A stretch of 63,075 bases of DNA, the filler included, from Octopus bimaculoides (Eukaryota): the NCBI RefSeq assembly GCF_001194135.2. It is 5 parts of 5 records of this genome, joined end to end, with 100 filler letters (N's around TTAATTAATTAA, not from the genome) between each part and the next. Parts side by side here need not be neighbours in the genome. Positions count along the whole stretch, not along the records: positions 1 to 31,077 come from NC_069009.1; positions 31,178 to 50,378 come from NC_068990.1; 3 more parts are not named here. One strand, written 5' to 3'. The notes below the pieces were generated by a model, which saw only the letters and a program-made list of their open reading frames with translations, made no database searches and was not told the origin of the DNA. The position numbers and the translations under genes are program-made. This document shows, one piece after another, positions 3,648 to 50,092 of this stretch. The stretch's first letter is position 1, and the number at the start of each line of letters is the position of its first letter.

Positions 3648-5400
3648 AAGGAAGAATTTAGTAAATTTTATCATTATTAAGCTGAGGTTTGGAATGTAAA
3701 TTAACCTGAAATTTTGATGGAAGGATTTAATTTAGATCACCTTAAATCTTACGTTACCATAGGAGAGTATTGTAGTTCACTTGAAGCATTGTGTATTGTT
3801 TCTAAAGAATAAAAAGTTTTGAATGGTACAACAGTGCACTATAATACAAAAATGGACTATATACCTGTTGTAATTTAGTTATCTATAGTCCGATGATATT
3901 TCGGAATACAATTTCTTCTTCAGACTATGGATAACTAAATTACAACAGGTAGATAGTCCATTTTTTGTATTATAGTGCATTGTTGTACCATTCAAAACTT
4001 CTTATTCTTTGTGTTACCATAACTGAAATCCACCACCTTTCTTTCAGTTAATTTTAAAAATAACTAAGAAATTTAGTAAAATAACTTTGTCATTACTAAA
4101 ATGGTGTTTGGAACATTAAAAGGAAATTTTGAATGAAGGTTTTAATTGAGATCACTTGAACCCTTTTGTTAGCATATATGTATTGAAGTATAATGCTTTT
4201 GTTTCAATTAATTTTGAAAATGAGGAAGAATTTTGTAAAATAACTTTCTCATTAATAAGCTGGAATTTTGAACAGACAAACTTGAAAATGTGAGGGAAAA
4301 AGATTTTTAGATTTGTCTTACCCTTTCGTTGCCGTATTTCTATAGAAATACGCTACCTTAATTTGAAGTGATTTTGAAAATAACAAAGAATTTAGTAAAA
4401 TAACTTTGCTGTTATCAAGCTGGTACTTAGAATATAATTTAACTTGAGATTTTGATGGATGGTTTTAATTTAGATCTCTTTAAAACAGGAAGTTTGTATC
4501 ATGGAACCCTGATTGCTCTCTGGCAGTTTGGTGTCGATGGAAGATAATGAAGGAATTAGTAAAAGAACTTTGTCATTATTGAGTTGGTGTTGGAACAAAA
4601 TTAACATGACACTTTGATGAAAGGTTTTAATTAAGATCACTATAAAACAGCAAGTTTGTATCATAGAACCAGGAGAATTGTTGTCTAAGACAGGTTGATA
4701 TCAAAAGGGCCAACATTTTTGTGGCCATACTTCTGTTGCAATATGCTGTCTTTGTTTCAATTAATTTTGGAAACAAGGAAATTTAGTGCAGTAAGTTTGT
4801 TGTTTGGAAACAAAATTAACATGAAATTTTGATGGAAGATTTTAATTTAGATTATTTCAAACGTTTTGTTGCCATTTTTCTGTTGAAGGAAAACGTGAAC
4901 TTTTGTGTCATAGAACCAGGTTGGTATGAAAAGGGTGAAAAACTTACAATTCTCATAAATTATGAGATAAAATATTGTTGCTTTCAAAGGTTCATCATTT
5001 TAAACACTNNNNNNNNNNNNNNNNNNNNNNNNNNNNNNNNNNNNNNNNNNNNNNNNNNNNNNNNNNNNNNNNNNNNNNNNNNNNNNNNNNNNNNNNNNNN
5101 NNNNNNNNNNNNNNNNNNNNNNNNNNNNNNNNNNNNNNNNNNNNNNNNNNNNNNNNNNNNNNNNNNNNNAAGTTTGTATCATAGAACCAGGTTGGTATGA
5201 AAAGGGTGAAAAACTTACAATTCTCATAAATTATGAGATAAAATATTGTTGCTTTCAAAGGTTCATCATTTTAAACACTTGGTTGGAATAACAAAACTAA
5301 AATTATTTACCAAGAAAAAAAAACCCGAAAAAGGAATTTATACAGAAATTAATTGAAACCCAAATTTGTCTCAAATTCTTAATCATCTCTTTCTCTCTCT
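3648..5400 (+). repeat. Tandem array of an about 160-bp interspersed-repeat unit (at least six copies)
   Basis: The block aagaatttagtaaaataactttgtcatt...aaattttgatggaaggttttaatttagatcac recurs at about 3654, 4067, 4226, 4386, 4551 and 4777; a partial copy lies at about 22050-22150. Confidence 0.75.
3804..4010. mobile_element. Fold-back element family A (about 87-bp arms) with a hammerhead-like motif at the apex
   Basis: Arms 3804-3890 and 3924-4010 are near-perfect inverted repeats. The minus-strand spacer reads CTGAAGA-A-gaaattgtattcc-GAAA-tatca-TC. A one-armed copy lies at 23305-23426. Confidence 0.75.
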
Positions 5401-5629
5401 CTTTTTTCTTTTTGTATTTTTGTTTTGAATTTATAACAGAAGGTTAGTTTCTAGGAAAATAATAGAAATACGATTCTGAGATGACTGTTTGTGTATGGCC
5501 GGAAAGGAAATAAAAGAAAAAAAGAGAACAATATTGTAAGTCACCTGACCTTTTAGAGTGTGGCTTCAAAAATCTGGAGTCTTTGGGAAATGTTTCTGGT
5601 ACATATATATATACACATATATATACATA

Positions 5630-6152
5630 CAGGGTATCTCAGTGTTATCTATCTATTTCAATGAGAGTGGACAAATTTTTAAAAAGCTGACAGAATTTTA
5701 TGTTTGTTTCTTAATTCTGTTACTAAAACAAATAGATTTATAAGTCATGCATCATGACTTTATTGGAAATTTTCAACATGTACTCCGTCTGAATCCGTGC
5801 ATATTTGATATCTACCATTAGCATTGCAAAACACATTTTGAAGCATTTCAGGAGTTAGCTCTTGCATGGCTAACTGAATGCGTTCTTTAAGCTCAGCTAA
5901 TTTGTTGCTCCATCTTTGGGATGGTGGTAGAGAAAATAATTGCATCCAAATTGATGAAAAGCTGTTGTGGTCAGATAAGTGGGATCCAACAGGAATGAAA
6001 ATAAAATTATAAAAATAATTATAAAAATCATATTCTGAACGAAATAAAAAAATTATACACTTTTAACACATATTAAGCATGATAAACATAAATAAAAGTG
6101 AGTTTTTAAAAGAATTGTCCCATTTCACTGAAATAGTTAATTCTGGCACAGC

Positions 6153-6155
<3 letters not shown>
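5630..6155 (-). mobile_element. Tc1/mariner-superfamily deletion derivative with transposase C-terminal remnant
   Basis: TA-flanked degenerate TIRs (CAGGGT...CTATTTCAATGA..GGACAA vs CAGGCT...CTATTTCAGTGA..GGACAA). Minus-strand ORF reads LAELKERIQLAMQELTPEMLQNVF.NANGRYQIC.DSDGVHVE. Confidence 0.7.
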
Positions 6156-6212
<57 letters not shown>

Positions 6213-7301
6213 TTTTAAGCAGTTAAGTATATGTCTGGTGAAAGAGTGGCCAATGGTTTTGCATCCATATGGACTTAGCCCTGTGGATAACTAATCAGGC
6301 CCTTATGCTGGAGGGCATATATTTCTTGAAACTGGAACTAGAACACACCAATATCAGCAGCACCAGCAAAGCGACCAGTCCCATTCCCAGTATTATCAAT
6401 GATGGCAGCCAGAACACCATCAGCGACAGCAGCAGCAACACCAGCACTATGGCCAGGGATCACCACCACAATGACAAAAGCCACAGCACCATCACCAGAC
6501 CGATGCTTCATAATAATAGCAGCAGCAACAACAACAACACATGCAGGTCTGGGGGCCAATAGAAGAGGCACCAGAGGTGTGAACAGAAGTAGAACTCAAG
6601 TTTGGAGATCTATCGAGTCAGCCAGAACTACCTTTAAGTAGCACCTGTACAACCACAGGTCGTCTTTTAAACTGCCAGAAAAACATTACGTCACATCCCA
6701 GGTTGGCCACGTATTGCACCCTAAGGATGAAGGAACTCCATAGGAAATTAAATGGAGGACCGTAGAGCAGCCAGTATCCTACATTAACAGGAACAGATGA
6801 TGCAAGCTTTGCATAGCAGAGTGAGCAAGTAACTTCAAAAACTCCTGTTATCCAGAATTACTGTTAAATTCCCGACACGATATTTATAGTCTCTGCCTTT
6901 TCTTCAAACACTACCTCTTGCAAGTTTGGGATTTGCCATTCATTGAATCCAACAAGAAAAAGAAGCCCTTTTGGGCTAGAAGCAGCCTGAGGCCAGAGGT
7001 TCCCCATTCGCCACTTCAACCCATATGGACTGCCAACTGAACTGGAAATAACTCGCCCTTGCTGACCCATGAGATGTATTTTTTGTTTACTACTAACTAA
7101 CCATAATGGATTTCTACCTCCAGTTTGAAGAGTTATATGCCCTCTGCCATTACGATCTGACAAGTCGTCCATGGGGCTAAGCCCTTTATGGATGCAAAAC
7201 CATTGGTTACTCTATGATCAGACATAGACTTAACTATTCATAAATACATTATTGCTCTATGGTTTAGAGGAGTATGCTTCTTTTTTGAATATCATACACT
7301 G

Positions 7302-7339
<38 letters not shown>

Positions 7340-7354
7340 TAGATATATATATAT

Positions 7355-7449
7355 ATAATTAAGGGATCAGCAAATATTTGCTTCACCATATACCGAAGTT
7401 CTGAACTTCGGTATATGGTGAAGCAAATATCTGCTGATCCCTTAATTAT
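7355..7449. repeat. Near-perfect 95-bp palindrome (47-bp arms, 1 mismatch, 1-nt centre)
   Basis: ataattaagggatcagcaaatatttgcttcaccatataccgaagttc-t-gaacttcggtatatggtgaagcaaatatctgctgatcccttaattat. Confidence 0.92.
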
Positions 7450-7585
7450 ATTTATAAATATATATGAGCTTTTAAATAAGTTCTCCACCAATAATGGTGC
7501 TTTCATACCGATGGGCTTGGTAAAAATTATTAATTGTTAATTGATTTATTAATTAATAAATTGATAATCCTTTACCCTTTTAATT

Positions 7586-8758: not shown

Positions 8759-8790
8759 GAAAAAAAAAGAGAAATATATATATATATATA

Positions 8791-9591
8791 CGAAGTCTGA
8801 TCAATAAGTATCCGGACTGTTGTCATAGTAACAAAGCTAAAGCACGCAGAGTGAAGCTGCTTGGCAAAGATTGACCTTGAAATCTGCTGTGCATGCACAC
8901 TAAGTTTTAACGCTCTTGCTCATTTCCGCTGTTTACAGCAGTGCTTGGAAGGAAGGTATGTAGAAGGAAGGTGCTTGGAAGCAAGGCCTACGCAAAGTTG
9001 CCGAAAGTGTATGGAGAGGGGTGTATGAGCTGCACTCAAGTCTATGAGTGGTTCAGACGTTTTCAAGATGGCCAAAAAAATGTTGATATTGATGGATGTT
9101 CTGGGAGACACACAGTCAGCAGAACTGAGAGAAACATCACAGACATGCATGCAGCTGTGAGAGGAAATTGTCCAATCACCATCTGTAAGTTATCAGAGCC
9201 AAAATTCCCGTATTTAGTTATGGTTCAGTTCAGTCCATTTTCACTGAAGATTTGGGTTTGGGTTTGGGTATGAGATGCATGTCTGCCAAGCTTGTGTCAA
9301 AACTGCTTTCTGTTGACCAAGAAAACACTCCGGGTTTCAGTTGCACAAGATCTTGATTGTGTCAAGAATGATGAAAACTTTTGGAAAGGTACTGCCAAGC
9401 TTTTGGGAAAATTTGATGCAGATTCTCTGCTCAACTTTCTCTGTGCCATGGTCAGTGCGATGATCATATGCTACACATCTTCCTCCCAAGCACTGCTGTA
9501 AACAGCAGAAGTGAGCTAGAACATAAAGGTCAAACTGTGCTTTAGCTTCATTACTATGGCAAAAGTCCAGATACTTATTGGTCAGACCACA
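8791..9591 (+). mobile_element. Internally deleted mariner element (N-terminal HTH remnant)
   Basis: About 55-bp imperfect TIRs (cgaagtctgatcaataagtatccggact...aagctaaagcac and its inverse), flanked by TA. ORF 8941-9273 contains YAKL.KVYGE.CMS.TQVYEWFRRFQDG...D..SGR, a mariner transposase HTH pattern. Confidence 0.88.
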
Positions 9592-10927
9592 TATATAATC
9601 ATGTGATTGGCAAGACTACTGGATACTTTTATACATCACCACTGATCACAATGTACTTTGTATTGTTTTAGCTTTTGAGTGATGTCACTCTGCTGGCTGA
9701 GAGAGCCGGCGAACATTCCCCCTGATTGGAAGGTTAGTCCATTGCAGGGTGACCCATTTGCAGCTGCATGGACTGGAGCAACATGAAATGAAGTGTCTTG
9801 CTCAAGAACACAATGTGCCACTTGGTCTAGGAATTGAACCCATGATCTAGTGATCATGTGTACACCACCCTAACCCTTGGGACATCCAACGTCACACACT
9901 TGTATATAGGTATGTTGAAGCACCCACTACACTCTCGTTAGGAAGGGCATCCAGCTGTAGAAACTCTGCCAGATCAGATTGGAGTCTGGTGTAACCATCT
10001 GGTTTGCCAGTCCCCAGTCAAATCGTCCAACCCATGCTAGCATGAAAAGCAGAAGTTAAACGACGATGATGATGATANNNNNNNNNNNNNNNNNNNNNNN
10101 NNNNNNNNNNNNNNNNNNNNNNNNNNNNNNNNNNNNNNNNNNNNNNNNNNNNNNNNNNNNNNNNNNNNNNNNNNNNNNNNNNNNNNNNNNNNNNNNNNNN
10201 NNNNNNNNNNCTCTCGTTAGGAAGGGCATCCAGCTGTAGAAACTCTGCCAGATCAGATTGGAGTCTGGTGTAACCATCTGGTTTGCCAGTCCCCAGTCAA
10301 ATCGTCCAACCCATGCTAGCATGAAAAGCAGAAGTTAAACGACGATGATGATGATATATATAGTCACTGATTTTGCAGCAAGCAAAAATGCTAGTTCTAA
10401 AATCTCTCTAAGAGATCAACGCAGTCGTTGTACCAATAAGTAATATTCGTAGCCACTTTAACATGGCTGTCTGTTCGAGCGGACTCTACTGTGATTTTTT
10501 TAACCCCAAGAGGACATCTCCTCTGAGGTGGTTAACAAAGCACAGCTGCAACCGATAAAATTGCGAGCAGGGGAGTGAACTCCTGTCATCCCTTAGCGAC
10601 GAGACCAGTAGATCAGTCCTGGTTTCAGGCTATTTCTACCACTCCTCAGTACTGGACACATCGTCTGCTAGGGGATGTAGGGGTTTGCTCTCCTGTTTTA
10701 TCTTTTACTTGTTTCAGTAATTAGACTGCGGCCATCTTGGGGCACCACAATGAATTTTTTTTAGTTGAATGTATCGACCCCAGTACTATTTTCTTTAAAC
10801 CTGGTTCTTATTCTATTGATCTCTCTTGCTGAACTGCTAAGTTAAGGAGGCATAAACACACAAACACTGGTTTTCAAACAGTGGAGGGAAGTGGGGAACA
10901 AACACAGATATACATACATATGTGCAT

Positions 10928-11469: not shown

Positions 11470-12800
11470 TTTGATAATAGATTTAGGCCCGATGTTTGAA
11501 GGTGAATATTATACTGCTGTGTTCATTGAGACAGTCTATGGATTGCAAAATAGCCATGACCTCAGCTATGTAGAGATCACGCTTATTATCATGACCACTG
11601 TAAGGTTTGGCGTGGGTATGGACCATTTGAGAGTGTAAGGGGTTGACTCAATCGTTAGTTGACTGATAAGTTGAGATAACGATGTACTGATAGATTTTGT
11701 ATGGGATTTGAAGCTATTTGAGTAGTGACTGCTCACCTTAGCTTTGAAGGTGGTGCTGCGTGAATCAGTGTAAAGGTAGTTACAATTGTTGGTTGATACT
11801 GTGCACTTATAAACTATATATTTAGTGAGACAGTGGTTATCTAAAGGACAAGAGGTTGGCCACCTGAAGCTGCATAGGTTTGTAGGGGGTGTTCTGGATG
11901 GGATTGTTATTTAGTGAGGAATTGGTGATTAGTTCTTCATTATAGTTGGTGCTGAGGTTATCAATTATTAAGGGGTTGAGGATGGTGTTGTTGAGAGGTA
12001 TGATATGATAATTATTGTGTCCGTTGGTATCTTCTATGGCAGTGGTTCCCAGACTATGAGCCGCGACCCACTGATGGGTCGTGAACGGAATCCTAGTGGG
12101 TCGCAAAAAGTTATAAAATTACGCATTAGCTTTGATTAACTGCTGTCTATTGAGATAGTTCAAGACTCATGTTTTCAATACCAGACTGGTATTGAAAACG
12201 ACCTTTAACACCCGAAAATTGGTACAGTTCTGGGTGTCTCTTCAAACCCCATACCCAATCATTTCCACCGAAACATTAAAAGTACTTCTCCCTTTCGCGT
12301 CATCTTATAATTGTGAAGCTGAATTTTCAGCAATGGTTGAGATTAAAAGCAAATTTCGAAATAAACTGCAGCTCTCAAATTCTTTACGGCTGAAACTATC
12401 ACGCATTGAACCTGATGTTAATTCTATTAGTGAGTGTAGCAAGAAGCAGGCTCATCCTTCTCACAGGCCTCAATGAAAATGTAATCTGAAATAAATTTGT
12501 TTCTTTCATTAATGTTTTGACCCAGTTGAGTTAAGTGGGTCACCATAAACTGGTGTCATAAATAGTGGGTCACGTCTGTAAAAAGTTTGGGAACCACTGC
12601 TCTATGGTATTCTCTATTATGGCAGGCAGTGTATGTGGTGGTTGTGGTAAATTTAAGGTTTGGGTGGTAGCAGTTGCTCTGTAGTTGTAGTTATGAGGGT
12701 TTGTTTTGTTATGGGGTTCAGTTGGTGTATTGGGTTTATATGTATGGTGCTGGGGCTTATGTTGAATTAGTTTACTTGGGCGGGGGTTAGCCATTAGTGC
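11470..12800 (-). mobile_element. Decayed Penelope-like element fragment (GIY-YIG endonuclease plus low-complexity linker), interrupted by a hAT MITE
   Basis: Minus strand 11875-11484 reads CSFRWPTSCPLDNHCLTKYIVYKCTV...TTFKAKVSSH..SF...STSLSQLISQL...YTLKWSI, then after a frameshift HAKPYSG...AEVMAIL...KHR. This matches the PLE pattern CxC..CPL..CL..VVY / FKxR..H..SF / LS..IW.L / W.I / PY. Confidence 0.75.
12040..12599 (+). mobile_element. Non-autonomous hAT (Buster/Charlie-type) element with remnant C-terminal dimerisation domain
   Basis: TIRs CAGTGGTTCCCA / TGGGAACCACTG; 8-bp TSD ttcTAtgg / ctcTAtgg (7 of 8 match, central TA). ORF 12192-12476 contains FWVSL..YP...LLPFASSYNCEAEFSAM..IKSKFRNKL...LRLKLS.IEPD...QAHPSH. 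Confidence 0.9.
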
Positions 12801-13775: not shown

Positions 13776-13899
13776 GAATTTTGTCAAGGCCCTTTTGAAA
13801 TTCATTTGTTAATCATTGTATATTGATCCAAGCAAAACCCCAAAAATCTTTCACTAAGGTTTTTTTCCAATCTTTTTAATATTCAATTTTTGATTGGTG

Positions 13900-19337: not shown

Positions 19338-19382
<45 letters not shown>

Positions 19383-19447
19383 TGATAGAAAAGGTAAGAC
19401 AACAAAAGAAAGAAAGAGACCTCTCTATTATGTAAATAGAGGAATTT

Positions 19448-19600
19448 ATCTGTAAATAATATGTGACAATTATTCGGTAGCCATGATAAAACTCCNNNNN
19501 NNNNNAGATAACTGAAGAGATGGCGGCATGGGTTTCCGCCCCGACATACGAAACTCAGAGTTTTATCATGGCTACCGAATAATTGTCACATATTATTTAC

Positions 19601-19606
<6 letters not shown>
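19448..19606. mobile_element. Fold-back element family B (47-bp perfect inverted arms) with a hammerhead motif
   Basis: atctgtaaat...gataaaactc (19448-19494) is the exact inverse of 19560-19606; there is a 10-N gap inside. Confidence 0.7.
19507..19567 (+). ncRNA. Candidate minimal type-I hammerhead ribozyme (family B)
   Basis: Stem I GATAA/TTATC; core CTGAAGA 19512-19518; stem II closed by G19519:C19549 with ggcgg/ccgcc; GAAA 19550-19553; helix III CTC-a-GAG; U16.1 at 19561, H17=U at 19562. Confidence 0.55.
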
Positions 19607-22387: not shown

Positions 22388-23304
22388 NNNNNNNNNNNNN
22401 NNNNNNNNNNNNNNNNNNNNNNNNNNNNNNNNNNNNNNNNNNNNNNNNNNNNNNNNNNNNNNNNNNNNNNNNNNNNNNNNNNNNNNNNNNNNNNNNNNNN
22501 NNNNNNNNNNNNNNNNNNNNNNNNNNNNNNNNNNNNNNNNNNNNNNNNNNNNNNNNNNNNNNNNNNNNNNNNNNNNNNNNNNNNNNNNNNNNNNNNNNNN
22601 NNNNNNNNNNNNNNNNNNNNNNNNNNNNNNNNNNNNNNNNNNNNNNNNNNNNNNNNNNNNNNNNNNNNNNNNNNNNNNNNNNNNNNNNNNNNNNNNNNNN
22701 NNNNNNNNNNNNNNNNNNNNNNNNNNNNNNNNNNNNNNNNNNNNNNNNNNNNNNNNNNNNNNNNNNNNNNNNNNNNNNNNNNNNNNNNNNNNNNNNNNNN
22801 NNNNNNNNNAGATATAGGTAATTTCAATTTAGAGGAAGGTAGATTAAGTAGTAATGGACAGCAGGTTAGGGGTAAATCAAGCAAGAGAGAAAAAGAATAA
22901 AGAGATAAGAAAAAAAGGTAAAATATATATATATATATATATATATAGATAGATATAGAAATGAAAATGGAAGGACAATACCCAAAGGAGTGGCTAGAGG
23001 AAATTTAAGGTAAAGGAATTTAGGTCAAGATATTGGAGAATTATTAAGAATATATCTATTGGTCAGTATATTTATAATAATACAACAAAACACTAAAGTA
23101 CTAAATTTAAAACCAAGGAGAACATTAATAGTTAAATTAGAACAAGACAAACATTTATAGTTAAAATAAGATATACATTAATGTGGGGTAGTAGAAGAGA
23201 GATATTATTTATAAGAAAAACCATAATATCAATGGCCAAAAATGAATAAAAAAAAATAAAATCCGTTAGTAAACAGTTTATAGCATAGACTCCATCTAAG
23301 AAAA

Positions 23305-23426
23305 TCTGAAGAAGGAATTGTATTCCGAAATATCATCGGACTATGGATAACTAAATTACAACAGGTATATAGTCCATTGTTTGTATTATAATGCATTGTT
23401 GTACCATTCAAGACTTTTTATTCTTT
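23305..23426 (+). mobile_element. Family A element, 5'-truncated at the hammerhead core
   Basis: CTGAAGA 23306-23312, A, GGAAT-tgt-ATTCC stem II, GAAA 23327-23330, followed by an arm nearly identical to the 3804-4010 arms. Confidence 0.7.
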
Positions 23427-24761
23427 ACAAATNNNNNNNNNNNNNNNNNNNNNNNNNNNNNNNNNNNNNNNNNNNNNNNNNNNNNNNNNNNNNNNNNNNN
23501 NNNNNNNNNNNNNNNNNNNNNNNNNNNNNNNNNNNNNNNNNNNNNNNNNNNNNNNNNNNNNNNNNNNNNNNNNNNNNNNNNNNNNNNNNNNNNNNNNNNN
23601 NNNNNNNNNNNNNNNNNNNNNNNNNNNNNNNNNNNNNNNNNNNNNNNNNNNNNNNNNNNNNNNNNNNNNNNNNNNNNNNNNNNNNNNNNNNNNNNNNNNN
23701 NNNNNNNNNNNNNNNNNNNNNNNNNNNNNNNNNNNNNNNNNNNNNNNNNNNNNNNNNNNNNNNNNNNNNNNNNNNNNNNNNNNNNNNNNNNNNNNNNNNN
23801 NNNNNNNNNNNNNNNNNNNNNNNNNNNNNNNNNNNNNNNNNNNNNNNNNNNNNNNNNNNNNNNNNNNNNNNNNNNNNNNNNNNNNNNNNNNNNNNNNNNN
23901 NNNNNNNNNNNNNNNNNNNNNNNNNNNNNNNNNNNNNNNNNNNNNNNNNNNNNNNNNNNNNNNNNNNNNNNNNNNNNNNNNNNNNNNNNNNNNNNNNNNN
24001 NNNNNNNNNNNNNNNNNNNNNNNNNNNNNNNNNNNNNNNNNNNNNNNNNNNNNNNNNNNNNNNNNNNNNNNNNNNNNNNNNNNNNNNNNNNNNNNNNNNN
24101 NNNNNNNNNNNNNNNNNNNNNNNNNNNNNNNNNNNNNNNNNNNNNNNNNNNNNNNNNNNNNNNNNNNNNNNNNNNNNNNNNNNNNNNNNNNNNNNNNNNN
24201 NNNNNNNNNNNNNNNNNNNNNNNNNNNNNNNNNNNNNNNNNNNNNNNNNNNNNNNNNNNNNNNNNNNNNNNNNNNNNNNNNNNNNNNNNNNNNNNNNNNN
24301 NNNNNNNNNNNNNNNNNNNNNNNNNNNNNNNNNNNNNNNNNNNNNNNNAGAAGATGAAACTAGTTTAGTGATTATGTAGCTGAAGATCCTCCACTATGAT
24401 GTCTATTGGCTATGAATGATATTCATTTTCATATTCCACAATTTTGTATCTGGTCATGGGGAATTATTACCTTGCTTAGAAATAGGTGAGGGTTGGTGAC
24501 AAGAAGAGCATCCTAGCCGTAGAAAATCTGCCTCAGTAAACTCCATCTGACCTATGCAAGCATGGAAAAGTGGTTGTTAAAATGATGAAGGGCGTGTTGT
24601 ATGTATGTGTCTGATATGTTTATGTGTATGAGAAGAAGATGAAACTAGTTTAGTGATTATGTAGCTGAAGATTCTCCACTATGATGTCTATTGGCTAAAA
24701 CTTCCTTTCTTTTCTTCTGTCTTTTCCTTCCCTGCCGGCACCTGTAGCTTCTCTCAACAGC

Positions 24762-29255: not shown

Positions 29256-29548
29256 CGTATCTACATAAATATGTATACTGTTGCTATTATGCTGAAGTAT
29301 TGTAAATCCAAAATGCTGCTTTTTCAGAAAATGACAAACTAGTTTCACCGTTCCATAGCAAAACTATTGTCCTACACTTTGACAATTTCTGATATCTTGG
29401 CATCTGAAGCAGCTGGAGATATGACAATTTGACCAGAAGAACCGGCCATTGCAAACAAAAATAAATATTGAAAAAACGCATTTGGCCAAATTTGGACATA
29501 CGACAGTTTAGCATAATATCAATGAAGGATGCTATATATATATGTATA

Positions 29549-29748
29549 CAGCATGGAATTTTGTCAGTGATCAGGTTGCGGTCTCAAAGCAACAAAAATA
29601 TTTTGGCAAATTAAATTTAAATGTTAAAGTGAATCTAAAGGTTTTTGTGTGTTTCTTAAATGGCTTATAAACTCCTTCCACACTGCAATTGTTTTCGTTC
29701 CAGCACACAATCTCAGATCAGGTCACTTGCTATGCAAGTACATCTCTA
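29549..29748 (+). mobile_element. Family C element, single CpG-decayed copy
   Basis: Aligns to 47545-47733; motif tttgtca GTGATCA g gttgc ggtctcaaa gcaac AAAA atat tt tggcaaa at 29560-29610. Confidence 0.8.
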
Positions 29749-38987: not shown

Positions 38988-39022
<35 letters not shown>

Positions 39023-41781
39023 CAGTAAAGGCAAGTGGCCTAGTGGTTAGAGTGGTTGCGCTCATGGTCGCGTGATTGTGATTTCGATATCCAGACCGGG
39101 CAGTATATTTTCTTCTTGTGCAAAATACTTAATTTCATGTCGTTCCAATTTCACTAAACTATGAATGAATAACACTGGGACGGACTGATGTTGTCTCCTC
39201 GGTCACTTATATTCCGTGAAAACAAGGCAGTCAGCTCTAAGAGACCCGAGACAGAAATGTCCAGGAGTTGATGAGGCTTAAAATCATTATAAAAGAATAA
39301 ATCAAATGCAGTGTGGATAATGGTTTCTGATTTAGGTGCATAGATCCTTGTACTAGACTGTTACTTTATTTTATTGACCCCCAGAGGAATGAAAGGCAAA
39401 ATTGACCATGATCAGATTTGAACTTAGAATGCAAAGATCCGGGAGGAATACCGCAAGATATTTTTTCCGCCTCCATAAAGCTCGCTGCTGTTAATGGTTT
39501 CTGATTTAAACACAAGACCATCAAAATTTAAGACAAGAGGTAATTCGATGTCATCGATTCTAGTTCTTCGACTTGTACTTCATTATATCGACTCCGAAGG
39601 CTGATATCGTCGGAATTTGAACTCAGAACGTAAGAAAAAACAGATCAATGATAACAAATTTCAGTTTAAGAACAAATTTCCCAAAGGAATTACTAAATTT
39701 TCTTCTGGAATCCCGAAGGAAAATACCTCCCCAAGTTAAGAATTATGGCGTTCTTCGTAGTTAAGGCTTTGAACAACCTTCTCATGAGCCATGATTTTAA
39801 ATTTATTGCCAGTGTTTCGATTTGTTTCTAGCAAGATCATTTTACTTCACACGCTTGTTTGTATCGATGTCATGCATCAATATCAGGTCTTCGGCAAAAA
39901 GAACTCGTAAGATGGTTTTCGAGTCGCCGTTGAAACGTAAACGGTGAGCTTGTGGCTGAACAAATAATTCGCAAGTAAGCTACGACAGCGGTTAACTGAT
40001 CTGCAACAATGGATAATAAAACTAATGCGAGTATAAGCAGCAGATAACGACAGAAACTGCTATCATTGCGATCGTCGAAACCCAATGCTGATCCGTAATT
40101 ATCGCTTGATTTCTTGGGATAAAATATATTATCTCTTAATATATTACTTTCAGAAAATGGGTGAGCTAGCAGAATCGTTAGCACGCCGGGCAAAACGCTT
40201 AGCGGCTTTTCCTCAATCTGTACTTTCTAAGTTCAAATTCCACCGAGGTCCATTTTGCTTTTCATTATTTCGGATTGATAAATTAGTATCGGCTGACCAC
40301 TGGGATTGATGTAATCGATTTCCTCTATGAAAACTGCTGGCCTTTTGCCAAAATTTAAAACCTTTATATTACGTTCGGAAAATGGGCAAGCTGGCAGAAT
40401 TGCTACTGCACCGGGTAAAATACTGAGTGGCATTTCTTCCGCCTCTATACATTCTGAGTTCAAAAGCCGCTAAGGTAAACTTTGTCTTTCATACCTTACT
40501 TCTGTCGATAAAATGAGTACCAACTGAGCATTAAGTTCAATGTAATCAATTTTCCCCTGCTTCTAAAATTTTGGGCTATATGCTAAAATTTGAAACAACG
40601 TATTATGTTCAGAGAAAGCATATTTAAGTGTAGAATGTAATGCAGATACATTGCGACGATAGACTTGCTAAACTCTATTTGAAAAAAGTTCTCTGCTGGC
40701 TGAATCAAAAGACTGACCGACAACCAGCCGTGTGGAAATTGGACGGTTCATATTCTCTCATTAGGTCTTCTTTCTGAGTTCAAATGCTGTTGGGTGTGGC
40801 TTTAGTTTTCTCACTACTGCAAATTAAGGACAATGCATTTGCTTTGTATGTAGAAAGGTACATAGCACTCAATGTACCAATCTATCAGCTATACTGTTTT
40901 GTCCAGGATCTACCCCAGTTGAAGAAACATATTATGAACGACGTTCTAATTGCGATCATTTCGTATTTTCTCCAGATATAGTGCATTTACGACTAAATTA
41001 TCAAACGTGTCAAGCTGTCCTTATATTCTCTCGTTGAGAGTGTACTACTAATTCGCCATGACCAGCGTACTGACACTTAAAAAAGTCTGTCGTATATTTA
41101 TCTATGTGTGTGTGTTTTTGTGTCTGTGTTTGTTTCCCACCAATACAGTGTTGGTGTCTTTACGTCCCTGTAACTCGGCGGTTCAGCAAAAAATGACCGA
41201 CAGAATATGTACCAGGCTTTAAAAAATAAGTACTACGGTCGATTCGTCGATTCGTCGATTCGTTCGACTACAATTCTTCAAGGCAGAAGGAAGTTATCGT
41301 ATTCCATAGTTAGTGTACGCGTAGATGCCCAACGTCCGAAAATCGATCATTTATTTATTTATTTATTTTTATTTAATTTTATTTATTTTTTTGTGATCGT
41401 AATTGCAGATGGTCGTAAATCGCATAGGTCGTAAGGAGAAGGTGTATATCTCTGTCTGCTTACGATTACACAGGCACCTAAAGCGTGGCCGCAATCTAAT
41501 GAGTGAAGCAAGTAAAAGATAAATTAAGAAATAATCTTTTTTTTTTTTTTGGAGCAGTCGATCTCGAAGTACATAAAGCTATAATAGCAAGTAAATATTG
41601 GATTGAATAACCTTTTAGCTTAGAAAAATTCAAAGGCTGCCTGTGAGAATTGAACCTACATCTGTACTTTATTTGTTGTTTTAGTCCTCACAATTAAAAT
41701 CAGCGCTGGTGCAGTTCTGTTCTCACCCGTGACTTATATACTGTATGTTTTGCTCGTTCAAAGCATGGAGGGCCGATAGTA

Positions 41782-42109
41782 CACCTCCTCGACTTACGAC
41801 CGAGTTCCGTTCCGATTGACAGGTCGCAAGTCGTATGTCAGATTTATATTTTTCAACACTACTTTTATTCACACGCAGCTGGTGCTTGAAAGCGACTGAG
41901 TAAGAGACAGTGGCGGGCAGTGAGATGCCTGGGTCTGTGGGAGGCCTGCGTAGCCAGATGCTGCCATAGTTACCGTACGCGTAGATGCCCAACGTCCGAA
42001 AATCGGTCATTTATTTATTTATTTATTTAGATTTAATCTTTTGTGGTCGTAAGCGCAGATGGTCGTAAGTCGCATAATCGTAAGTCGCATAGGTCGTAAG
42101 GAGAAGGTG
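41782..42109. mobile_element. Tigger/pogo-like MITE
   Basis: TA-flanked TIRs cacctcctcgacttacgacc / ggtcgtaaggagaaggtg; subterminal tcgtaag repeats. Confidence 0.65.
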
Positions 42110-45100
42110 TATATCTCTGTCTGCTTACGATTACACAGGCACCTAAAACAATCAGCGAAATCATGGTACATGTTTCCAAGCCATACAGTAGCCTTAAATT
42201 TGTTTATATCCGAGTCAAACAGACATTCCAGCTGAAATCGTTTCATCTTTTAGGGGAGGTCATTTATACCAACTTTACCTAATTGTGTCCTTCAAGATTT
42301 TAACAGTGTGGTGTGATAACGAAGGAGATTTAGCTGCTATGTCTAGCGAGTCAAGTGACCATGTACAGGCTCTTTCGTGGTCTTGTTCAATTGTTAGTTC
42401 TGACAGACGAGCAATTTCACATCATCCGATAAAGTAATGTATTACAAGTTAAGAGAGATATGATCCTTTCTACTATAGGCACAAGGCCTGAAATTTGAGG
42501 GGACGGCGAAACGATTTCATCGACCCCAGAACACAATTGGTACTTATTTCATCGACCGCGAAAGGATGAAAAGCAAAATCGACCTCAGTGGGATTTGAAA
42601 CCAGAATGTAAAGACAGACGAAATGCTGCTAGGCGTCTTGTCCGGTGGGCTAACGATTCTGCCATCTCACTGCCGTTTGGTTAAAAAGCGACATAATGTA
42701 AGAATGTTGTAAATAGTTTAATAAATAAATAAATAAATAAAATCCTTTGAAATCACGAACTCATCTTGTCGGGGGTTCACCTTCTTAGCTTCCTTAATAG
42801 AACATCTGAAATATCTACTTTTCCTCAGAGACTTGTAAATGTTTTGCAACTCTTTCTGTATTATAAACTTCACTTTGAACAACGAGAAGTGGGTAGAGGC
42901 TTTTTCTACGTAAGAAAAAAAAAATACACGAGAAAGTATTTAAGTGTAAGAAAAACGCACAAAATAAAAATTTTGCATAATACCCTTTTCAACACTCGTA
43001 AAACAAACCCCTGAACGTCTAGAAAGGTATACGCTACGTAAATATTTTCACNNNNNNNNNNNNNNNNNNNNNNNNNNNNNNNNNNNNNNNNNNNNNNNNN
43101 NNNNNNNNNNNNNNNNNNNNNNNNNNNNNNNNNNNNNNNNNNNNNNNNNNNNNNNNNNNNNNNNNNNNNNNNNNNNNNNNNNNNNNNNNNATATATATAT
43201 CATACATGTAGATAAACGATTGCGTGTATATGAAGTGAATGTATTACCATTTATATATGCGCAAAAAAAAAAACGTTGCAGTTATTTCAGAGACGTGCTG
43301 TCTGGGCTGGTAAAATACACATTCTGCCTAGATTAAATCTGTAATAAGTTAATTATTGAATATTAAATTATATGAATATTAAATTAAGAAAAGTAAATGA
43401 TTTCTAATTCCTTATAAAGTACGTGGAATTTAGTATTTAATTCAATAATTAACTAATCATTTGATGTTAGATAAGTTCAGTTTCTCTCTGCATTTCGCCC
43501 TCAGTGTATAGTGGGGTATGCGTAACGCTATTAACACCTACCACCGCCGTATAATAAGTAAAGCAGCAGAATTCATTAAATGTAGTGTCATGAAGACAGG
43601 AAATTTTCTGCTTTTGTTTAAGTATCACTACAGAGCAAAGCATATGAGCAACTGTGTTGCATTACGTGTGTTGTTGCCGATTCAGGGGAGTGTGGCTGTG
43701 TTGCTAAGAAGCTTGCTTCCCAGCCCTGTGGTGTTGGGTTCAGTTCCACTGTGCGATGCCTTGGACAAGTATCTTATACTATAGCCCCGGGCCGACCAAA
43801 ATCTTGTGAGCGAATTTAGTAGATGATTTCTTCAAGTATAGTTCAATATGTAAGTGTGAGGGTGCGTATGGGTGCAGAATAGCCAGAAAATCTTGGAAAA
43901 TGTTATAAAATTACAGATGTTTAGTCGCAGTGATTCCAAACATCCAGTATATTTATTCAGTAGAAAACAAATCACTGTGTCGAACAGACAACCGGATGTT
44001 GCGAAACATCACTGGTCACAATGCGCTTCCCATTGTTTTAACTTTCGAATGGCACTGAGGCAAGCAGGCCAATATTCCTCTTGATCAGGAGACTATTGCG
44101 TCACATGGTTACTCATTTACAGATCAGTGAACTGGAACAACGTGAAATGAAGTGTTTTGCTCAAGAACACAACATACCATCCGCTCTGGGAATTGACCCC
44201 ATGATCCAGCCGAGCAAGATAGGGTTCCAAACTGGTGATGCAAATTCTAAGTGTTGAATCTCTTTCACAATTCACAATAATGATTTTTATTACTTATATT
44301 CTTGCCTCAGTTCATCTATTTGTATATATCTATCGTTACTTTTCATAAAAAGCCTTTACGTTTTTTGATTTCCAGTGTGTATTTTCGCTTATTTTTCTTA
44401 TTTTCCCCTTACATTTCCACGAGTAGTTTCTATTTTCTTTTTGTAACATATCTCTATTATATATATATATATATATATATNNNNNNNNNNNNNNNNNNNN
44501 NNNNNNNNNNNNNNNNNNNNNNNNNNNNNNNNNNNNNNNNNNNNNNNNNNNNNNNNNNNNNNNNNNNNNNNNNNNNNNNNNNNNNNNNNNNNNNNNNNNN
44601 NNNNNNNNNNNNNNNNNNNNNNNNNNNNNNNNNNNNNNNNNNNNNNNNNNNNNNNNNNNNNNNNNNNNNNNNNNNNNNNNNNNNNNNNNNNNNNNNNNNN
44701 NNNNNNNNNNNNNNNNNNNNNNNNNNNNNNNNNNNNNNNNNNNNNNNNNNNNNNNNNNNNNNNNNNNNNNNNNNNNNNNNNNNNNNNNNNNNNNNNNNNN
44801 NNNNNNNNNNNNNNNNNNNNNNNNNNNNNNNNNNNNNNNNNNNNNNNNNNNNNNNNNNNNNNNNNNNNNNNNNNNNNNNNNNNNNNNNNNNNNNNNNNNN
44901 NNNNNNNNNNNNNNNNNNNNNNNNNNNNNNNNNNNNNNNNNNNNNNNNNNNNNNNNNNNNNNNNNNNNNNNNNNNNNNNNNNNNNNNNNNNNNNNNNNNN
45001 NNNNNNNNNNNNNNNNNNNNNNNNNNNNNNNNNNNNNNNNNNNNNNNNNNNNNNNNNNNNNNNNNNNNNNNNNNNNNNNNNNNNNNNNNNNNNNNNNNNT

Positions 45101-47389
45101 ATATATATATATATATAATTAATAGTTTTTTAATCGACAGAACGCTTTTGTAACTTTCTGCTGATTAACCATCTGCCTATCTATCTCTCTGTATTTATTT
45201 CTCACTCATCAATAAATTAGTTTCCGATCGGAATCGAAGCATCTGCTTTGCTCAGAGTATCGTTATCCCCTTTCATGTTCCTTGAGTTTTATTGCTAATT
45301 TTTCCTTAATCAACATTTCTACGGTACTTGTCTTTTCGCTTTTTCATTGGTGTTTTTTACTTGTTGATGTAATGAAAAATTGAACGGAATCACTTATTTT
45401 CTTTCTGTTTTTGTTGTTTGTTTTAACGTTTGCCTCAGTTTTTTTTCATATCTTATGAGTAAGTTTGAGGATGTACGAGGATGTATGTATATATATATAT
45501 ATATATAATACAAAGTAAAAGGGATTACTAAATCCAGTCAGATACCCATAAAGCACTCAGTATTAAACGAATTTGGTTAGCTGTATCTAACAATCAGATA
45601 CCTATAAATACAAGTAGAATTAACATCCAAGGTAATTCTTCATGTATGACAAGTAAACCTAGATATCACTCAGAAGAATCTCAAGAAATCCGGAGTATAA
45701 GACAACACGAATAAGAATACACCGAAAATTGTACAAAAAACAAAAGAAGCAACAAATAAGGTCTATTAATTTGACGCTCGGGAAAAATGAAAGAATCTTT
45801 GACGTTTTGAGTCTACTTTCTTCTTCTACAGAAGATATATATATATATATTCTAGCGGGTTAGATGTCCTATTATGGACATCTCTCTTATGTGTTTAAAT
45901 GTACACAGTATGTATTTATATGAATAATATATAGTCTATTGACTTGTTTTTTTTCTCTCGCTAGACCATTGGTAGCAAATAGAATTTCTAAATTTTTTTG
46001 CTACCCTGAGATTTATTAATAATGAAATAGTGATTTTTTTGGCTAATTTCTGAAAGAAAATCGGCATTTTTTGTATTTGCTGCCAATAACAAAAAACCGC
46101 ACATGCGCGGTAGATATGAATAGTTATAACATATAAGCACGGGTCATGTTTCTAAGTGTTGCCTCGTATTTATGTGTTAATCTTGACTTTCCTGCTGATG
46201 ATAGCTGGCCTAGCAAATCATTTTATTTTGCTGAAAATAGCTTGAAACCTTGTGGTTTGGAGTTTAACTGCTCCTTCTAGCGGGTTAGATGTCCTACTAT
46301 GGACATCTCTCTTATATGTTTAAATGTACACTGTATGTATATATATATATATATNNNNNNNNNNNNNNNNNNNNNNNNNNNNNNNNNNNNNNNNNNNNNN
46401 NNNNNNNNNNNNNNNNNNNNNNNNNNNNNNNNNNNNNNNNNNNNNNNNNNNNNNNNNNNNNNNNNNNNNNNNNNNNNNNNNTATATATATGTATATTAGT
46501 GAAGGCTAAGTCGTTAGGGTATTCAGCTGCTCACGATCACAAGGTCGTGTATTCGATCCCCGGTGACGCGTTGTGTCCTTGAGCAAGATACTATTTCACG
46601 TTGCTCCAATCCACTCACCTGGCAAAAATGAGTAGTATGTGTCATCCAAAGGGCCAGCCTTGTCACACTCTGTGTCACGCTGGATCTCCTTGAGAGTTAC
46701 GTTAAGGGTACGCTTGTCAGCGGAGTGCTCAGCCACATGCAAGTTAATTTCACGAGCAGGCTGTTCCGTTGATCGGTTCAGCTGGAAACTTCGCCGTCGT
46801 CAGCGACGGAGTACCAGTGATAGATAGATAGATAGTGCCTAAACTTTGAGTCAAAGCAGATCAATACGTTAGGGCGCCAGTTACAACAACGACGACACGC
46901 CACTGATGGCTGTTGTCGTTATGTTGTTAATAGTTTGACTTGACAATTGCAAGATGAAGTCAATGATTACAACTAAATGATCAATTGGTTTACTGATTTG
47001 TATTTTGTTTGATCATTGGCTTGGTGTGTTCATATAAACTAATTGGCAGATTGCAAGAGTTTTCTTTAATGACTAGTCAAACTAATGAAGGCGTGTGATG
47101 TAGTGATTAGCGTGCTGCACACACGATCGTGGGATCGCTGGTTCGATTGCCGGACCGGACGGCGCGTTGTGGTTTTGAGCAAAACACTTCATGACACGCT
47201 GCTCTCCGATATCCGACGTAATACACACCGTGCACCTGCACAGGTAATTTTGAGTCAATCCAATGTTAAGTTAGTGTAAGGTGCGTATATAGCAGTCTAC
47301 TAGTCCGATGTCTAATGCAATGAAACAATGTGGTTTTTAATAAACTTGTTTTTATTTATTAATTAATTAACTGAGGAATTGATTCATTT

Positions 47390-47733
47390 ACAATTGCAGC
47401 GTGGAAGGTTTTTATAAGCCATTTAAGAAACACACAAAAACCGTTAGATTCACTTCAACATTTAAATTTAATTTGTCAAAATATTTTCGTCGCTTTGAGA
47501 CCGCGACCTGTTCACTGACAAAATTCTGTGCTGCACAGAATTTTGCAGCACAGAATTTTGTCAGTGAAAAGCGACGAAAATATTTTGACAAATTAAATTT
47601 AAATGTTGAACTGAATCTGACGGCTTTTGTGTGTTGTTTTAAATGGCTTATAAACACCTTCCACGCTGCAATTGTTTTCGTTCCAGCACACAATCTCAGA
47701 TCAGGTCACTTGCTATGCAAGTACATCTCCGTG
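47390..47733. mobile_element. Family C element: two head-to-head copies forming an about 285-bp fold-back
   Basis: Inverted arms 47390-47545 and 47545-47675; the right copy continues to 47733 and lacks 15 nt of the ribozyme motif. A single copy lies at 29549-29748. Confidence 0.8.
47472..47522 (-). ncRNA. Candidate type-I hammerhead ribozyme variant with G3:C8 core (family C)
   Basis: tttgtca / GTGAACA / g / gtcgc-ggtctcaaa-gcgac / GAAA / atat / T T / tgacaaa. Confidence 0.5.
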
Positions 47734-48702
47734 ATTCATTTACGTAATTCAGAAACTTTGCTCGTCTCTCTCTTGCTTCATCTTCAATTACTTTTCTTCG
47801 ACTGAATCATTTTTTAAAAAATATTTTATTTGTTTATTCGTTCATGTTTACTCTCAGTTTCTCGATTTCACTTACCTTATCGTTTCTCTAATTCGTCATC
47901 TGTTTCTCTCTTTCTCTCTGTCTCATTCTCCCTCCATGTCACTCTTTCATTTACACATTGTTCCTGTCTCTCTCTGTCTCCGCCCCTCTCCCTCTTCCTT
48001 TCTCCTACTTTCTCCACACACACTCTTTCTTTTTCCTTCATTTTCTCTCTCTCTCCCCCTCCCACCCTCACACATTGTTCCTGCATCTCTGTCCCTTCCC
48101 CCTCTCTCTTTCTCTTTCTTGCTCTCTCTCTCTCTCTTTCATTTACACATTGTCCCTATCTATCTGACTCTCTGTGTCTCTGTATCGTTTTACCTCTAGC
48201 TCATTGTTGGGTTTTATCTTCTATCATCTTCGCTTACTTAAGTCACTGGACTGCGGCCATGCAGGGACTTCGTCCGGAAGGGTTTTAGTCGAACAAACTG
48301 ACTTTAATATTTGTATTTTTTGAAGTCTAGCATTTATCATACATCTTTGCTGAACTGCTAACTTCCTGAAACGGTGGGTCGGTGATGAGCGACACTCCAA
48401 CACGCACACGCGTGCGAAACAGGCTTTCATACAGTTCCTGTTTACCAAATTCACACACAATGATTTGGCCAATCCGGAGCTCTAGTAGAAGATATTTGCC
48501 CAAGGTGCCGCGCAGTGGGATTGAACCTCAGAACTCGTAATTGCAAATCAAGCTTCTTAACCACAGATCCATGCCTTCGCCTAAACACACATACACATAT
48601 ACATACATCCGTACATATATATACATATATACAAAATATACATATGTATATATATATACATACATACATACATACAAAATATACATATGTATATATATAT
48701 AC

Positions 48703-48735
<33 letters not shown>

Positions 48736-48799
48736 CATATGTATATATATACACATGTATATATATATAGATATATTGCATCTCACATAATATATACTT

Positions 48800-49140
48800 T
48801 ACACTCGCCATAGAATATATTTTTTATTCAACCTTTTTTATATATATATTTCATATATTACATATATTTATCATATTACTCATAAATTTTATATATATCA
48901 TATATTTCATATATTTAATACATTTCACATATTTCATAATTTTATTCATATTTTTTTCGATATATTCATATATTTCATATATTCATAATTAAATTCATAA
49001 TTACTTCATATATTTCGCATACTCATATATTTCATATATCCATAATTTTATTTATAATTATTTTTATATATTTCACATATTCATATATATCATATATTTC
49101 ATATATTCATAATTAAATTCATTATTTTTATATATTTCTC
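48800..49140. repeat. AT-rich degenerate minisatellite (catatatttcatat / ttcataatt variants)
   Basis: Visible periodic repeat. Confidence 0.75.
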
Positions 49141-49699
49141 CTCACAATCTTCACTAAGTGGAATTGTGCTTTAAAAGAAAAGCACCGTCAATGGTAGACT
49201 GTGTGCGTTGTTACGTTTAGTGCCGCTGTAGTTTTTCGAACATTGTTTGGGTAAGCTTGTTAATAGTGTAGCGTATCTGAAAAAGACGAGCAAAAGAAAG
49301 CGTAAGTCATTGACATATTTTACAGGAATTTAAATAACAAACTCACAAATATGCGCATGCGCATGCACAGACATATATGCGCCTGTGTACACACAGATAC
49401 ATAAATATATGCATATCCGTATGTGTCATAGGTATACATATATATACATTGTATTTCGACTGTCCGATTTCGCGTTCGGCATGAGCAAATGATCTTTATA
49501 TATTGCATTCAAAATTTACTTTCATCGATTATCAATCGCAGAAACGTGTGTGTAATCGATGAAATAAAGAAATATCGAATTCATCCTTTATGTTTTTCTC
49601 TCATAACAGATGTGGTTTTTATATCACGTAATAGCCCTATACGTGTCACATAGAACATTATTGGATCACGCATCAGATGGAGTTTAATGTGAATATTGT

Positions 49700-50092
49700 T
49701 AAGAGCTGCAACTAACAGGTAATATTTTTTTTCAATGATTTAAGTTGCATTTTACTTATGATAATTTTGTGTGAGCCTAAAATTTTGTTCATTATTTTAT
49801 CTCCTGTGAGGATGGGTAGATTTTGGATGATAACGTTAAAGGCTTCCTTGTTTCTAGGTCTATGTGTGGAGATGTATGGGAGTATTTTTAAGTCTGGTTT
49901 AGTATTTCGGTTGACTTCTCTTAATGTTCGTATGTCTATTTCCTTAGCTCCGCTTAATTCCATCATTTATTAAAGATATTGAGTAATGCCTTTTGATTAG
50001 TATTGATCTGAGTTCAAAGAGTCTTCGTTCACGAGTATAGGAGTCCGAAACTATGGTACAGATTCTTTTCGCCAGATTAAAAAGTATATTAA
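49700..50092 (-). mobile_element. Penelope-like element fragment (RT thumb to endonuclease linker)
   Basis: NLAKRICTIVSD...RERRLFELRSILIKRHYS..LINDGIKR then PYISTHRPRNKEAFNVIIQNLPIL..D..M..IL..HKII.SKMQLKSLKK. Confidence 0.78.

What the first reader, a model, noticed from the sequence alone, without database searches (positions are those of the whole stretch)
3804..50092. System-level: three unrelated hammerhead fold-back families plus Penelope coding relics in one window
Seen: families A, B and C share no obvious primary sequence yet share an architecture (minimal type-I hammerhead, very short helix III that is palindromic in B and C, inverted duplication). Penelope GIY-YIG (11484-11875) and RT-linker (49700-50092) fragments occur in the same window. 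Inference: the genome hosts a diversified set of non-autonomous, ribozyme-processed elements mobilised by Penelope RTs. Their long hairpins would also be dsRNA substrates for ADAR, which is known to be very active in coleoid cephalopods.
Basis: inference. Interest (0 to 1): 0.75.

Follow-up and report, generated by a model that had tools for sequence, protein, structure and literature searches.

The report
Truncated Penelope ends, swapped-core hammerheads
The three hairpin repeats are real, but each is the cut-short end of a different protein-coding Penelope-type jumping gene rather than a parasite family of its own; the mirror image was likely made during insertion, and their small hammerhead motif, predicted but not shown to cut RNA, occurs in this genome with three versions of a normally fixed base pair.

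Summary
The motifs, fold-backs and two Penelope relics are present. The reading 'non-autonomous fold-back families' fails. Walking upstream in the genome, the hammerhead ends of A, B and C each run into their own GIY-YIG (and RT) reading frame, about 300, 760 and 900 nt away. Most B and C copies have no inverted arm. 5' ends and junctions vary, 3' ends are fixed, and target duplications are 9-14 nt or (TA)n: published Penelope-like-element (PLE) anatomy, not MITEs. The two relics belong to further families (D, E), and the window joins two chromosomes, so co-occurrence is not linkage. Two extras: (1) 39 of 41 classifiable inverted pairs have one tailed and one untailed arm, none two tailed (p about 3e-10), which favours two-site priming on one RNA; (2) the core 3:8 pair is C:G in A, B, D, G:C in C, and A:U in E with a G:C subgroup. 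Cleavage is untested; ADAR editing is only hinted at. The scan reported the same anatomy and G3:C8 before on other DNA, including this genome; A3:U8 was not in the notes shown.

The parts
3762..4010 (-). Family A fold-back insertion: sense arm on minus strand with ~42-nt tail (ends 3762), short inverted arm (ends 4010); core at 3923-3899 with helix I register lost at the junction; 9-nt target duplication
23250..23431 (+). Family A solo 5'-truncated copy; hammerhead N3 at 23306, predicted cut after 23334; 3' end runs into an assembly gap
19375..19605 (+). Family B (Hydra-type) fold-back in (TA)n: inverted tailed arm 19375-19495, 10 N, sense arm with core 19512-19553, short end 19605
47390..47732 (.). 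Family C fold-back: minus-strand arm with intact G3:C8 motif (N3 47515, predicted cut after 47479, short end 47390); plus-strand arm tailed, 15 nt of helix II deleted; 9-10-nt target duplication
29546..29746 (+). Family C solo copy, G3:C8 kept, G12 changed, CpG-type changes in helix II, in TA-rich site
11484..11910 (-). GIY-YIG relic of a fourth family (D, Hydra-type linker); its relatives end in their own C3:G8 hammerhead, absent from this copy
49715..50092 (-). RT thumb/linker relic of a fifth family (E); relatives carry RT, CX4CxxC linker, GIY-YIG and an A3:U8 hammerhead ~640 nt on, absent from this copy
6633..6821 (+). Second, unreported Hydra-type nuclease relic
   Evidence: (32% to family B nuclease, E 4e-5)

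Best explanation
A, B and C are the hammerhead-bearing 3' ends of three different protein-coding Penelope-like retrotransposon families, left as 5'-truncated copies, and the fold-backs were likely built at insertion by copying the element's RNA twice. Shown: continuity with coding sequence, ragged 5' ends, two fixed 3' ends per family (tails of about 42, 72 and 60 nt), 9-14-nt or (TA)n target duplications, one tailed plus one untailed arm per fold-back. Inferred: the element's GIY-YIG nuclease cuts both strands of an AT-rich site with a stagger; each cut end primes reverse transcription on sense RNA, one at the downstream start site (tailed arm) and one at the upstream site (short arm); both copies stop early and are joined head to head, often at short matches near the ribozyme. 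The one-long-one-short rule suggests both sites are used together on one RNA-protein complex. The hammerhead is under pairing constraint in the source elements and would cut weakly, as a dimer or with protein help, but in the fold-back stumps it is a passenger, mostly broken or buried.
For: Coding link: A, RT+nuclease frames end ~290-300 nt before the motif in 3 long copies (L151, L152, L156; Pfam RVT_1 E 4e-10). B, RT and nuclease ~760 nt upstream in L153, L154; L153 runs from the N-terminal frame to the motif and has an inverted tailed copy at its 5' end. C, nuclease frame ends 900 nt upstream in L155 (Pfam GIY-YIG E 2e-5); the C motif follows the nuclease match in 7 of 25 loci, 12 others have a gap and 2 a contig end downstream, 4 have neither. 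Inverted arm adjoining in 8 of 29 B and 6 of 29 C loci (lower bounds; gaps), 25 of 29 A loci (query was itself a junction) with 22 different junctions. Ends: 53 inverted pairs, 12 dropped (7 odd end, 5 gap), 39 long+short, 2 short+short, 0 long+long; solo ends 48 short, 39 long; p 3e-10. Target duplications of 9-14 nt in 11 of 22 A and 2 of 7 C pairs, TA runs beside 10 of 11 B pairs. 3:8 pair: C family G3 and C8 each 15 of 16; E family A:U 26, G:C 3, 1 truncated, no one-sided change, of 30. Literature: PMC8557442, PMC3846280, PMC4209133, PMC11167929.
Against: No intact full-length ORF was recovered for any family; for C the RT shows only as a gapped frame (L158); Pfam gave no hit on B's RT pieces and GIY-YIG scores for A and B are under the curated cut-off. 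No direct-repeat pLTR-ORF-pLTR unit was seen: 3 of 168 locus records hold two same-strand cores, only L129 closely. Only the best 40 of 766-2158 candidates were scored per search, so samples lean to young, query-like copies. Four A loci share one junction, as a mobilised fold-back subfamily would. Core letters are barely better kept than flanks among copies (A 0.946 vs 0.922; C 0.948 vs 0.903). Arms of one locus are only slightly more alike than arms of different loci (4.0 vs 4.8 changes in 73 nt, 18 loci), so one template is not shown. In vitro, Frangieh et al. saw no strand difference in start site. Cleavage untested; family A helix I is 2-3 bp.
Confidence: 0.88

Rival explanations
1. One reading: A-C are dedicated non-autonomous (retrozyme- or SINE-like) fold-back families, cut by their ribozymes and moved in trans by Penelope RT.
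For: Most copies are under 400 nt and non-coding; 4 A loci share the window's junction; short copies are in RNA; non-LTR retrozymes are proposed to derive from PLE pLTRs (bioRxiv 2026.07.22.740005) and pLTRs can act in trans (PMC3846280).
Against: No fixed 5' end; continuous gradient up to coding sequence; the 4 same-junction loci differ in which arm is tailed (2 and 2); no tandem arrays; no pile-up of read ends.
Confidence: 0.07
2. Same identity (PLE stumps), but the mirror arm comes from self-priming fold-back on an antisense template, and the one-sided tail from nuclease resolution of the intermediate (Arkhipova et al. 2013; Craig et al. 2021). This competes only with the inferred step; its confidence is for that step.
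For: Short palindromes at some junctions, e.g. window 47516-47567 and L061, L063, L084; RNA reads on both strands equally; it also predicts one tail per insertion.
Against: Many junctions have no palindrome, or delete or overlap the core; purified Poseidon protein cuts and extends both strands and starts at two sites that match the tail ends (PMC11167929); two-strand RNA is explained by read-through of dispersed copies.
Confidence: 0.3
3. TIR DNA-transposon MITEs with chance hammerhead-like words.
For: Fold-back shape; some duplications of 9 nt; a true MITE-like insert with terminal repeats and 8-nt duplication lies in the window at 12040-12599.
Against: Unequal arm ends, variable duplication length, many solo copies, link to RT/GIY-YIG, 3:8 covariation.
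Confidence: 0.01

Closest known systems
Insertion units of EN+ Penelope-like elements: 5'-truncated copy, adjacent inverted copy, one-sided tail (Craig 2021 PMC8557442; Arkhipova 2013 PMC3846280)
   Same: 5' truncation, head-to-head inverted arm, tail at one end, 8-10-nt duplications there vs 9-14 here, (TA)n bias.
   Different: Tails here ~42, ~72, ~60 nt against the quoted 30-40; the one-tail rule is counted here (39 of 41); direct tandem pLTRs were almost absent from the sampled loci.
Minimal hammerheads of metazoan PLEs (Cervera and De la Pena 2014, PMC4209133)
   Same: Type I, vestigial palindromic helix III, extra base at the helix II junction, many families per genome, pairs on opposite strands 100-700 bp apart, mostly solo motifs from truncated PLEs.
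   Different: That paper and Perreault 2011 (PMC3088659, passage) report natural U3-A8; here G3:C8 is the family state of C and A3:U8 of E.
Hydra-clade PLEs, incl. Hydra-1_Obim of Octopus bimaculoides (PMC8557442 section 11, Files S1-S2)
   Same: [quoted passage not shown]
   Different: B's motif differs from the listed Hydra-1_Obim motif, and short B, A and C words were not found in that supplement in an octopus entry: a different family.
Poseidon PAc of Anolis (Frangieh 2024, PMC11167929)
   Same: Two RT start sites bracketing the tail; both strands cut and extended at AT-rich DNA; C3G/G8C double mutant partly active; no RNA-seq ends at the cut site.
   Different: No strand bias of start site in vitro; there pLTR overlaps the ORF start, not seen here.
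Non-LTR retrozymes (PMC7229834, listing only; bioRxiv 2026.07.22.740005)
   Same: Short, non-coding, type I hammerhead, PLE-related.
   Different: Defined by head-to-tail tandem monomers; here dispersed solo or head-to-head copies continuous with ORFs.

Membership tests
EN+ Penelope-like element | RT plus C-terminal GIY-YIG continuous with the element end | tested here: met
   A and B both domains; C nuclease clear, RT only as a gapped frame
EN+ Penelope-like element | Hammerhead near the 3' end | tested here: met
EN+ Penelope-like element | 5' truncation, inverted 5' copy, one-sided tail | tested here: met
EN+ Penelope-like element | Direct partial tandems forming pLTRs around the ORF | tested here: inconclusive
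   one close tandem (L129) among 168 locus records of ~3 kb; gapped assembly
EN+ Penelope-like element | RT phylogeny with named clades | not tested
Hydra clade (family B, relic D) | CxCX5C linker, no CCHH in nuclease, (TA)n target | tested here: met
   B linker reads C-x-C-x5-C, TA flanks; D linker partly decayed, target TA-rich
Neptune/Nematis type (families C, E) | CX2-5CxxC linker and two cysteines within GIY-YIG | tested here: met
   C: CX3CxxC; E: CX4CxxC; the two clades not told apart
Penelope/Poseidon or Nematis (family A) | Linker zinc finger absent (Poseidon) or present (Nematis) | tested here: inconclusive
   two linker cysteines, third missing
Minimal type I hammerhead | Core letters with Watson-Crick 3:8 pair, helix II, U16-H17, helix I | tested here: met
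   all core letters in 21 of 28 A and 13 of 16 C copies chosen by upstream sequence; helix I 2-3 bp in A, 5+ in B, 7+ in C
Minimal type I hammerhead | Self-cleavage | not testable with these tools
   no read-end pile-up in fragmented RNA-seq, which cannot show it well
Non-LTR retrozyme | Head-to-tail tandem monomers, no link to an ORF | tested here: not met
Non-LTR retrozyme | Circular RNA | tested here: inconclusive
   no RNA joint on the C stretch among those shown; stretch laid for B lacks the tail; one back-joint 895-720 in a simple-sequence part of B unexplained
MITE | Equal terminal inverted repeats, fixed duplication length, matching transposase | tested here: not met
ADAR-edited inverted repeat | A-to-G excess in RNA against DNA of the same individual at a unique locus | tested here: inconclusive
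   mild excess on C, none on B body; reads from other loci, no matched DNA

The most novel reading that the evidence does not exclude
PLE fold-backs record coupled two-site priming: one protein dimer on one RNA starts one copy at each end of the tail, one from each cut DNA strand, so tail length is the spacing of two RT active sites. And this genome's PLE ribozymes sample A3:U8 and G3:C8 naturally, with an A:U to G:C switch inside family E, completing with published U3:A8 all four pairs in nature, perhaps tuning cleavage down.
Probability: 0.4. Interest if true: 0.55.

Novelty: new member of a known kind. Interest (0 to 1): 0.33.

Why it matters
As a system it is ordinary PLE debris and should be annotated as such, not as MITEs or retrozymes. 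It matters in two narrower ways. How PLEs make inverted insertions is open; the 39-of-41 long/short rule over three unrelated families is a genomic constraint that can be tested with the existing in vitro system. Natural G3:C8 and A3:U8 cores are invisible to C3-G8 descriptors and to Rfam here, so PLE ribozyme counts are likely too low, and the covariation argues that the catalytic pair is under selection. If the hairpins are edited, PLE insertion would be one source of the high dsRNA content reported for octopus (PMC5625713).

Tried and rejected
Rfam scan: no hammerhead. Inverted-repeat tool swamped by N runs. Pfam on the two window relics was run in the wrong frame and says nothing; frames fixed. 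Relics as parents of A-C: no DNA match to 8 long copies; only protein-level likeness of D to B. Run search: no RNA holder listed on record; three 2026 raw RNA runs were laid instead. Locus-specific expression of 47390-47732: flanks have depth 0-1 against ~200 inside, 83-85% of laid reads run on into other sequence, so the window hairpin itself is not shown to be transcribed. Editing: A>G plus T>C against G>A plus C>T places on C were 41:33, 45:30, 34:30 in RNA and 10:20 in one contig run (Fisher p 0.05, 0.02, 0.08; one study, unmatched DNA, different species label); on the B body 125:151, 94:130, 102:130 against 75:97, no excess: a hint only. Tail hairpins: window tails of A, B, C fold no better than shuffles (z 0.85, -0.27, -0.42); of three motif folds only C gave helices I and II (z -2.5). 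Within-family conservation and arm-against-arm tests were uninformative. Protein homologue search gave unnamed hits. Palindrome 7339-7465 has no core motif and no match in 221 loci: not one of A-C. Literature for natural G3:C8/A3:U8: searches found only engineered G3-C8 (PMC3884650 passage, PMC11167929) and natural U3-A8; notation varies and subscription papers are missing, so absence is weak. Supplements of the bioRxiv preprint and of PMC4209133 were not seen and may list such variants.
Full report
Setting. The window is a pack of five stretches. Stretch 1 (1-31077) lies on contig C29 and stretch 2 (31178-50378) on C10 of a 2.34-Gb genome. The finding spans both stretches, so the co-occurrence of family C's fold-back and the RT relic with A and B is an effect of packing.

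What is in the window. Self-BLAST and a core scan give three hammerhead-bearing repeats: A at 3762-4010 and 23250-23431, B at 19375-19605, C at 47390-47732 and 29546-29746. Three are fold-backs predicted at -126, -82 and -191 kcal/mol. A reads CUGAAGA, an extra A, a 5-bp helix II, GAAA, AUAU-type helix III and a 2-bp helix I. B has a long helix II with an extra base, ACUC-N-GAGU helix III and a 5-bp helix I. C has GUGAACA (G3:C8), a 5-bp helix II, AAUAUU helix III and a 7-bp helix I. A strict descriptor finds 2 sites and none in 40 shuffles (written after the fact, misses B); Rfam finds none.

Each family is the end of a coding element. Genome searches gave 1475, 2158 and 766 first-look candidates, 40 scored each. 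Two B loci share 1.3 kb upstream, which encodes a GIY-YIG nuclease and, further on, RT; L153 reaches the N-terminal frame, about 2.9 kb, and carries an inverted tailed copy at its 5' end. For A, a search with upstream sequence led to RT with YVDD and a nuclease ending about 300 nt before the motif in three loci. For C the same walk led to a nuclease frame 900 nt upstream; of 25 loci found with that protein, 7 show the C motif downstream, 12 have a gap, 2 a contig end, 4 neither. By the motifs in Craig et al. B is Hydra-type, C Neptune/Nematis-type, A unresolved. No intact ORF was recovered.

The fold-back is made per insertion. An adjoining inverted arm was found in 8 of 29 B and 6 of 29 C loci (duplicates L026, L057, L085 dropped; lower bounds because of gaps) and in 25 of 29 A loci, where the query was a junction; those 25 have 22 different junctions. 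Each family has two sharp 3' ends, about +123/+165, +94/+166 and +125/+185 from the core. Of 53 inverted pairs under 2.6 kb, 41 have both ends classifiable: 39 long+short, 2 short+short, 0 long+long; solo ends are 48 short and 39 long, so about half would be mixed by chance (p 3e-10). L153 is a further long+short pair, counted among solos because of its span; two long B pairs were not checked by eye. Duplications of 9-14 nt flank 11 of 22 A and 2 of 7 C pairs; 10 of 11 B pairs touch TA runs. The window's A and C fold-backs have 9- and 9-10-nt duplications. This excludes MITEs and matches PLE insertion units.

The relics are other families. Neither matches long A, B or C copies as DNA. Relatives of the GIY-YIG relic (D, 156 candidates) end in a different C3:G8 hammerhead (10 of 20 loci matched, one match spurious). 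Relatives of the RT relic (E, 470 candidates) have RT, linker and nuclease and a motif about 640 nt on in 8 of 20 loci. In 30 E loci chosen by sequence downstream of the core, positions 3:8 are A:U in 26, G:C in 3 and host sequence in 1 truncated copy; none is changed on one side only. The three G:C copies share other changes, so this is probably one event. None of these 30 showed an inverted arm within 1.5 kb. So five families give C:G, C:G, G:C, C:G and A:U: the best evidence that the fold is selected in source elements, since conservation among inserted copies is near neutral.

Mechanism. Shown above: identity, truncation, two ends, the one-tail rule. From Frangieh et al.: a PLE protein cuts and extends both strands of AT-rich DNA and starts at two internal sites that define the tail; the ribozyme needs protein and is dispensable for insertion in vitro; C3G/G8C is partly active. 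Inferred: both cut strands prime, one at each site, and the two short copies join head to head. Independent choice on two RNAs would give long+long and short+short pairs, so I favour one complex (about 0.6), against antisense self-priming with nuclease resolution (about 0.3). In fold-backs the motifs lie on opposite strands and pair with the other arm, so they cannot form the tandem dimer; close same-strand tandems were seen once in 168 locus records.

RNA. Three raw RNA runs of one study cover the C and B repeats on both strands about equally, from other loci; the window hairpin's flanks are nearly empty; no pile-up of ends. A>G/T>C places slightly exceed the reverse changes on C but not on the B body; with unmatched DNA and many copies this is a hint. 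Octopus has very high hyper-editing and dsRNA potential (PMC5625713).

Papers seen. PMC4209133: parts 1-2 of 4 (abstract to methods). PMC8557442: passages, section 11, supplement searches and part 2 of 59. PMC11167929: parts 1-2 of 4 (main text). PMC3846280, PMC3088659, PMC5625713, PMC3884650: passages. bioRxiv 2026.07.22.740005: part 1 of 5. PMC7229834: listing only. Hammerhead numbering, hAT/mariner labels, SINE labels and the DMC1/RAD51 label are recalled, not from a call. Searches for prior reports.

Verdict. Real, known in kind: new PLE families with the published anatomy. The counted one-tail rule and natural G3:C8 and A3:U8 cores are the parts worth keeping. Earlier scan notes, read, reach the same reading; they are not independent support.

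Noticed in passing
window 12040-12599: Insert with terminal inverted repeats starting CAGTGGTTCCCA and a near-perfect 8-nt duplication, hAT-like MITE by recall, sitting inside the family D relic.
   Followed up: partly
window 8785-9597: Decayed element with inverted ends and transposase-like broken frames, mariner-like by recall.
   Followed up: partly
window 7339-7465: Near-perfect palindrome with a 3-nt loop in TA-rich sequence, no hammerhead core, no match in 221 loci; may be a very short stump of another family.
   Followed up: partly
L016, L065, L069, L178, L193, L201 (also L153): A further repeat with a hammerhead-shaped motif whose position 6 is U instead of A (CUGUUGA, extra A, short helix II, GAAA, ACGU helix III); 6 exact-pattern hits in 221 loci.
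   Followed up: partly
window 50090-50378; L130, L207: Repeat abutting the RT relic, 99.5% identical copy in L130; begins with a small nested stem-loop; seen next to PLE copies three times; identity unknown.
   Followed up: no
L014, L023: Family A copies inserted in the 3' end of family B copies; in L023 the duplication is B sequence.
   Followed up: no
L022 (G000:C5:122.1 Mb): A family A copy lies just downstream of an exon that reads like DMC1/RAD51 (recalled), probably intronic.
   Followed up: no
L222-L251: Family E shows no inverted arm in 30 of 30 loci, unlike A-C; inversion rate may differ by family.
   Followed up: partly
L153:720-895: RNA reads in all three runs join 895 back to 720 (77, 39, 51 reads) with one extra T; absent from the contig run; a tandem duplication in an expressed copy or a small circle.
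   Followed up: no
window 16961-18531: 32-nt tandem satellite, about 1.5 kb; other diverged tandem arrays at 13193-16316.
   Followed up: no
G000: 4463 candidate places for family C's nuclease region; over 100 scored hits at 44-52% identity point to many more Neptune-type families.
   Followed up: no
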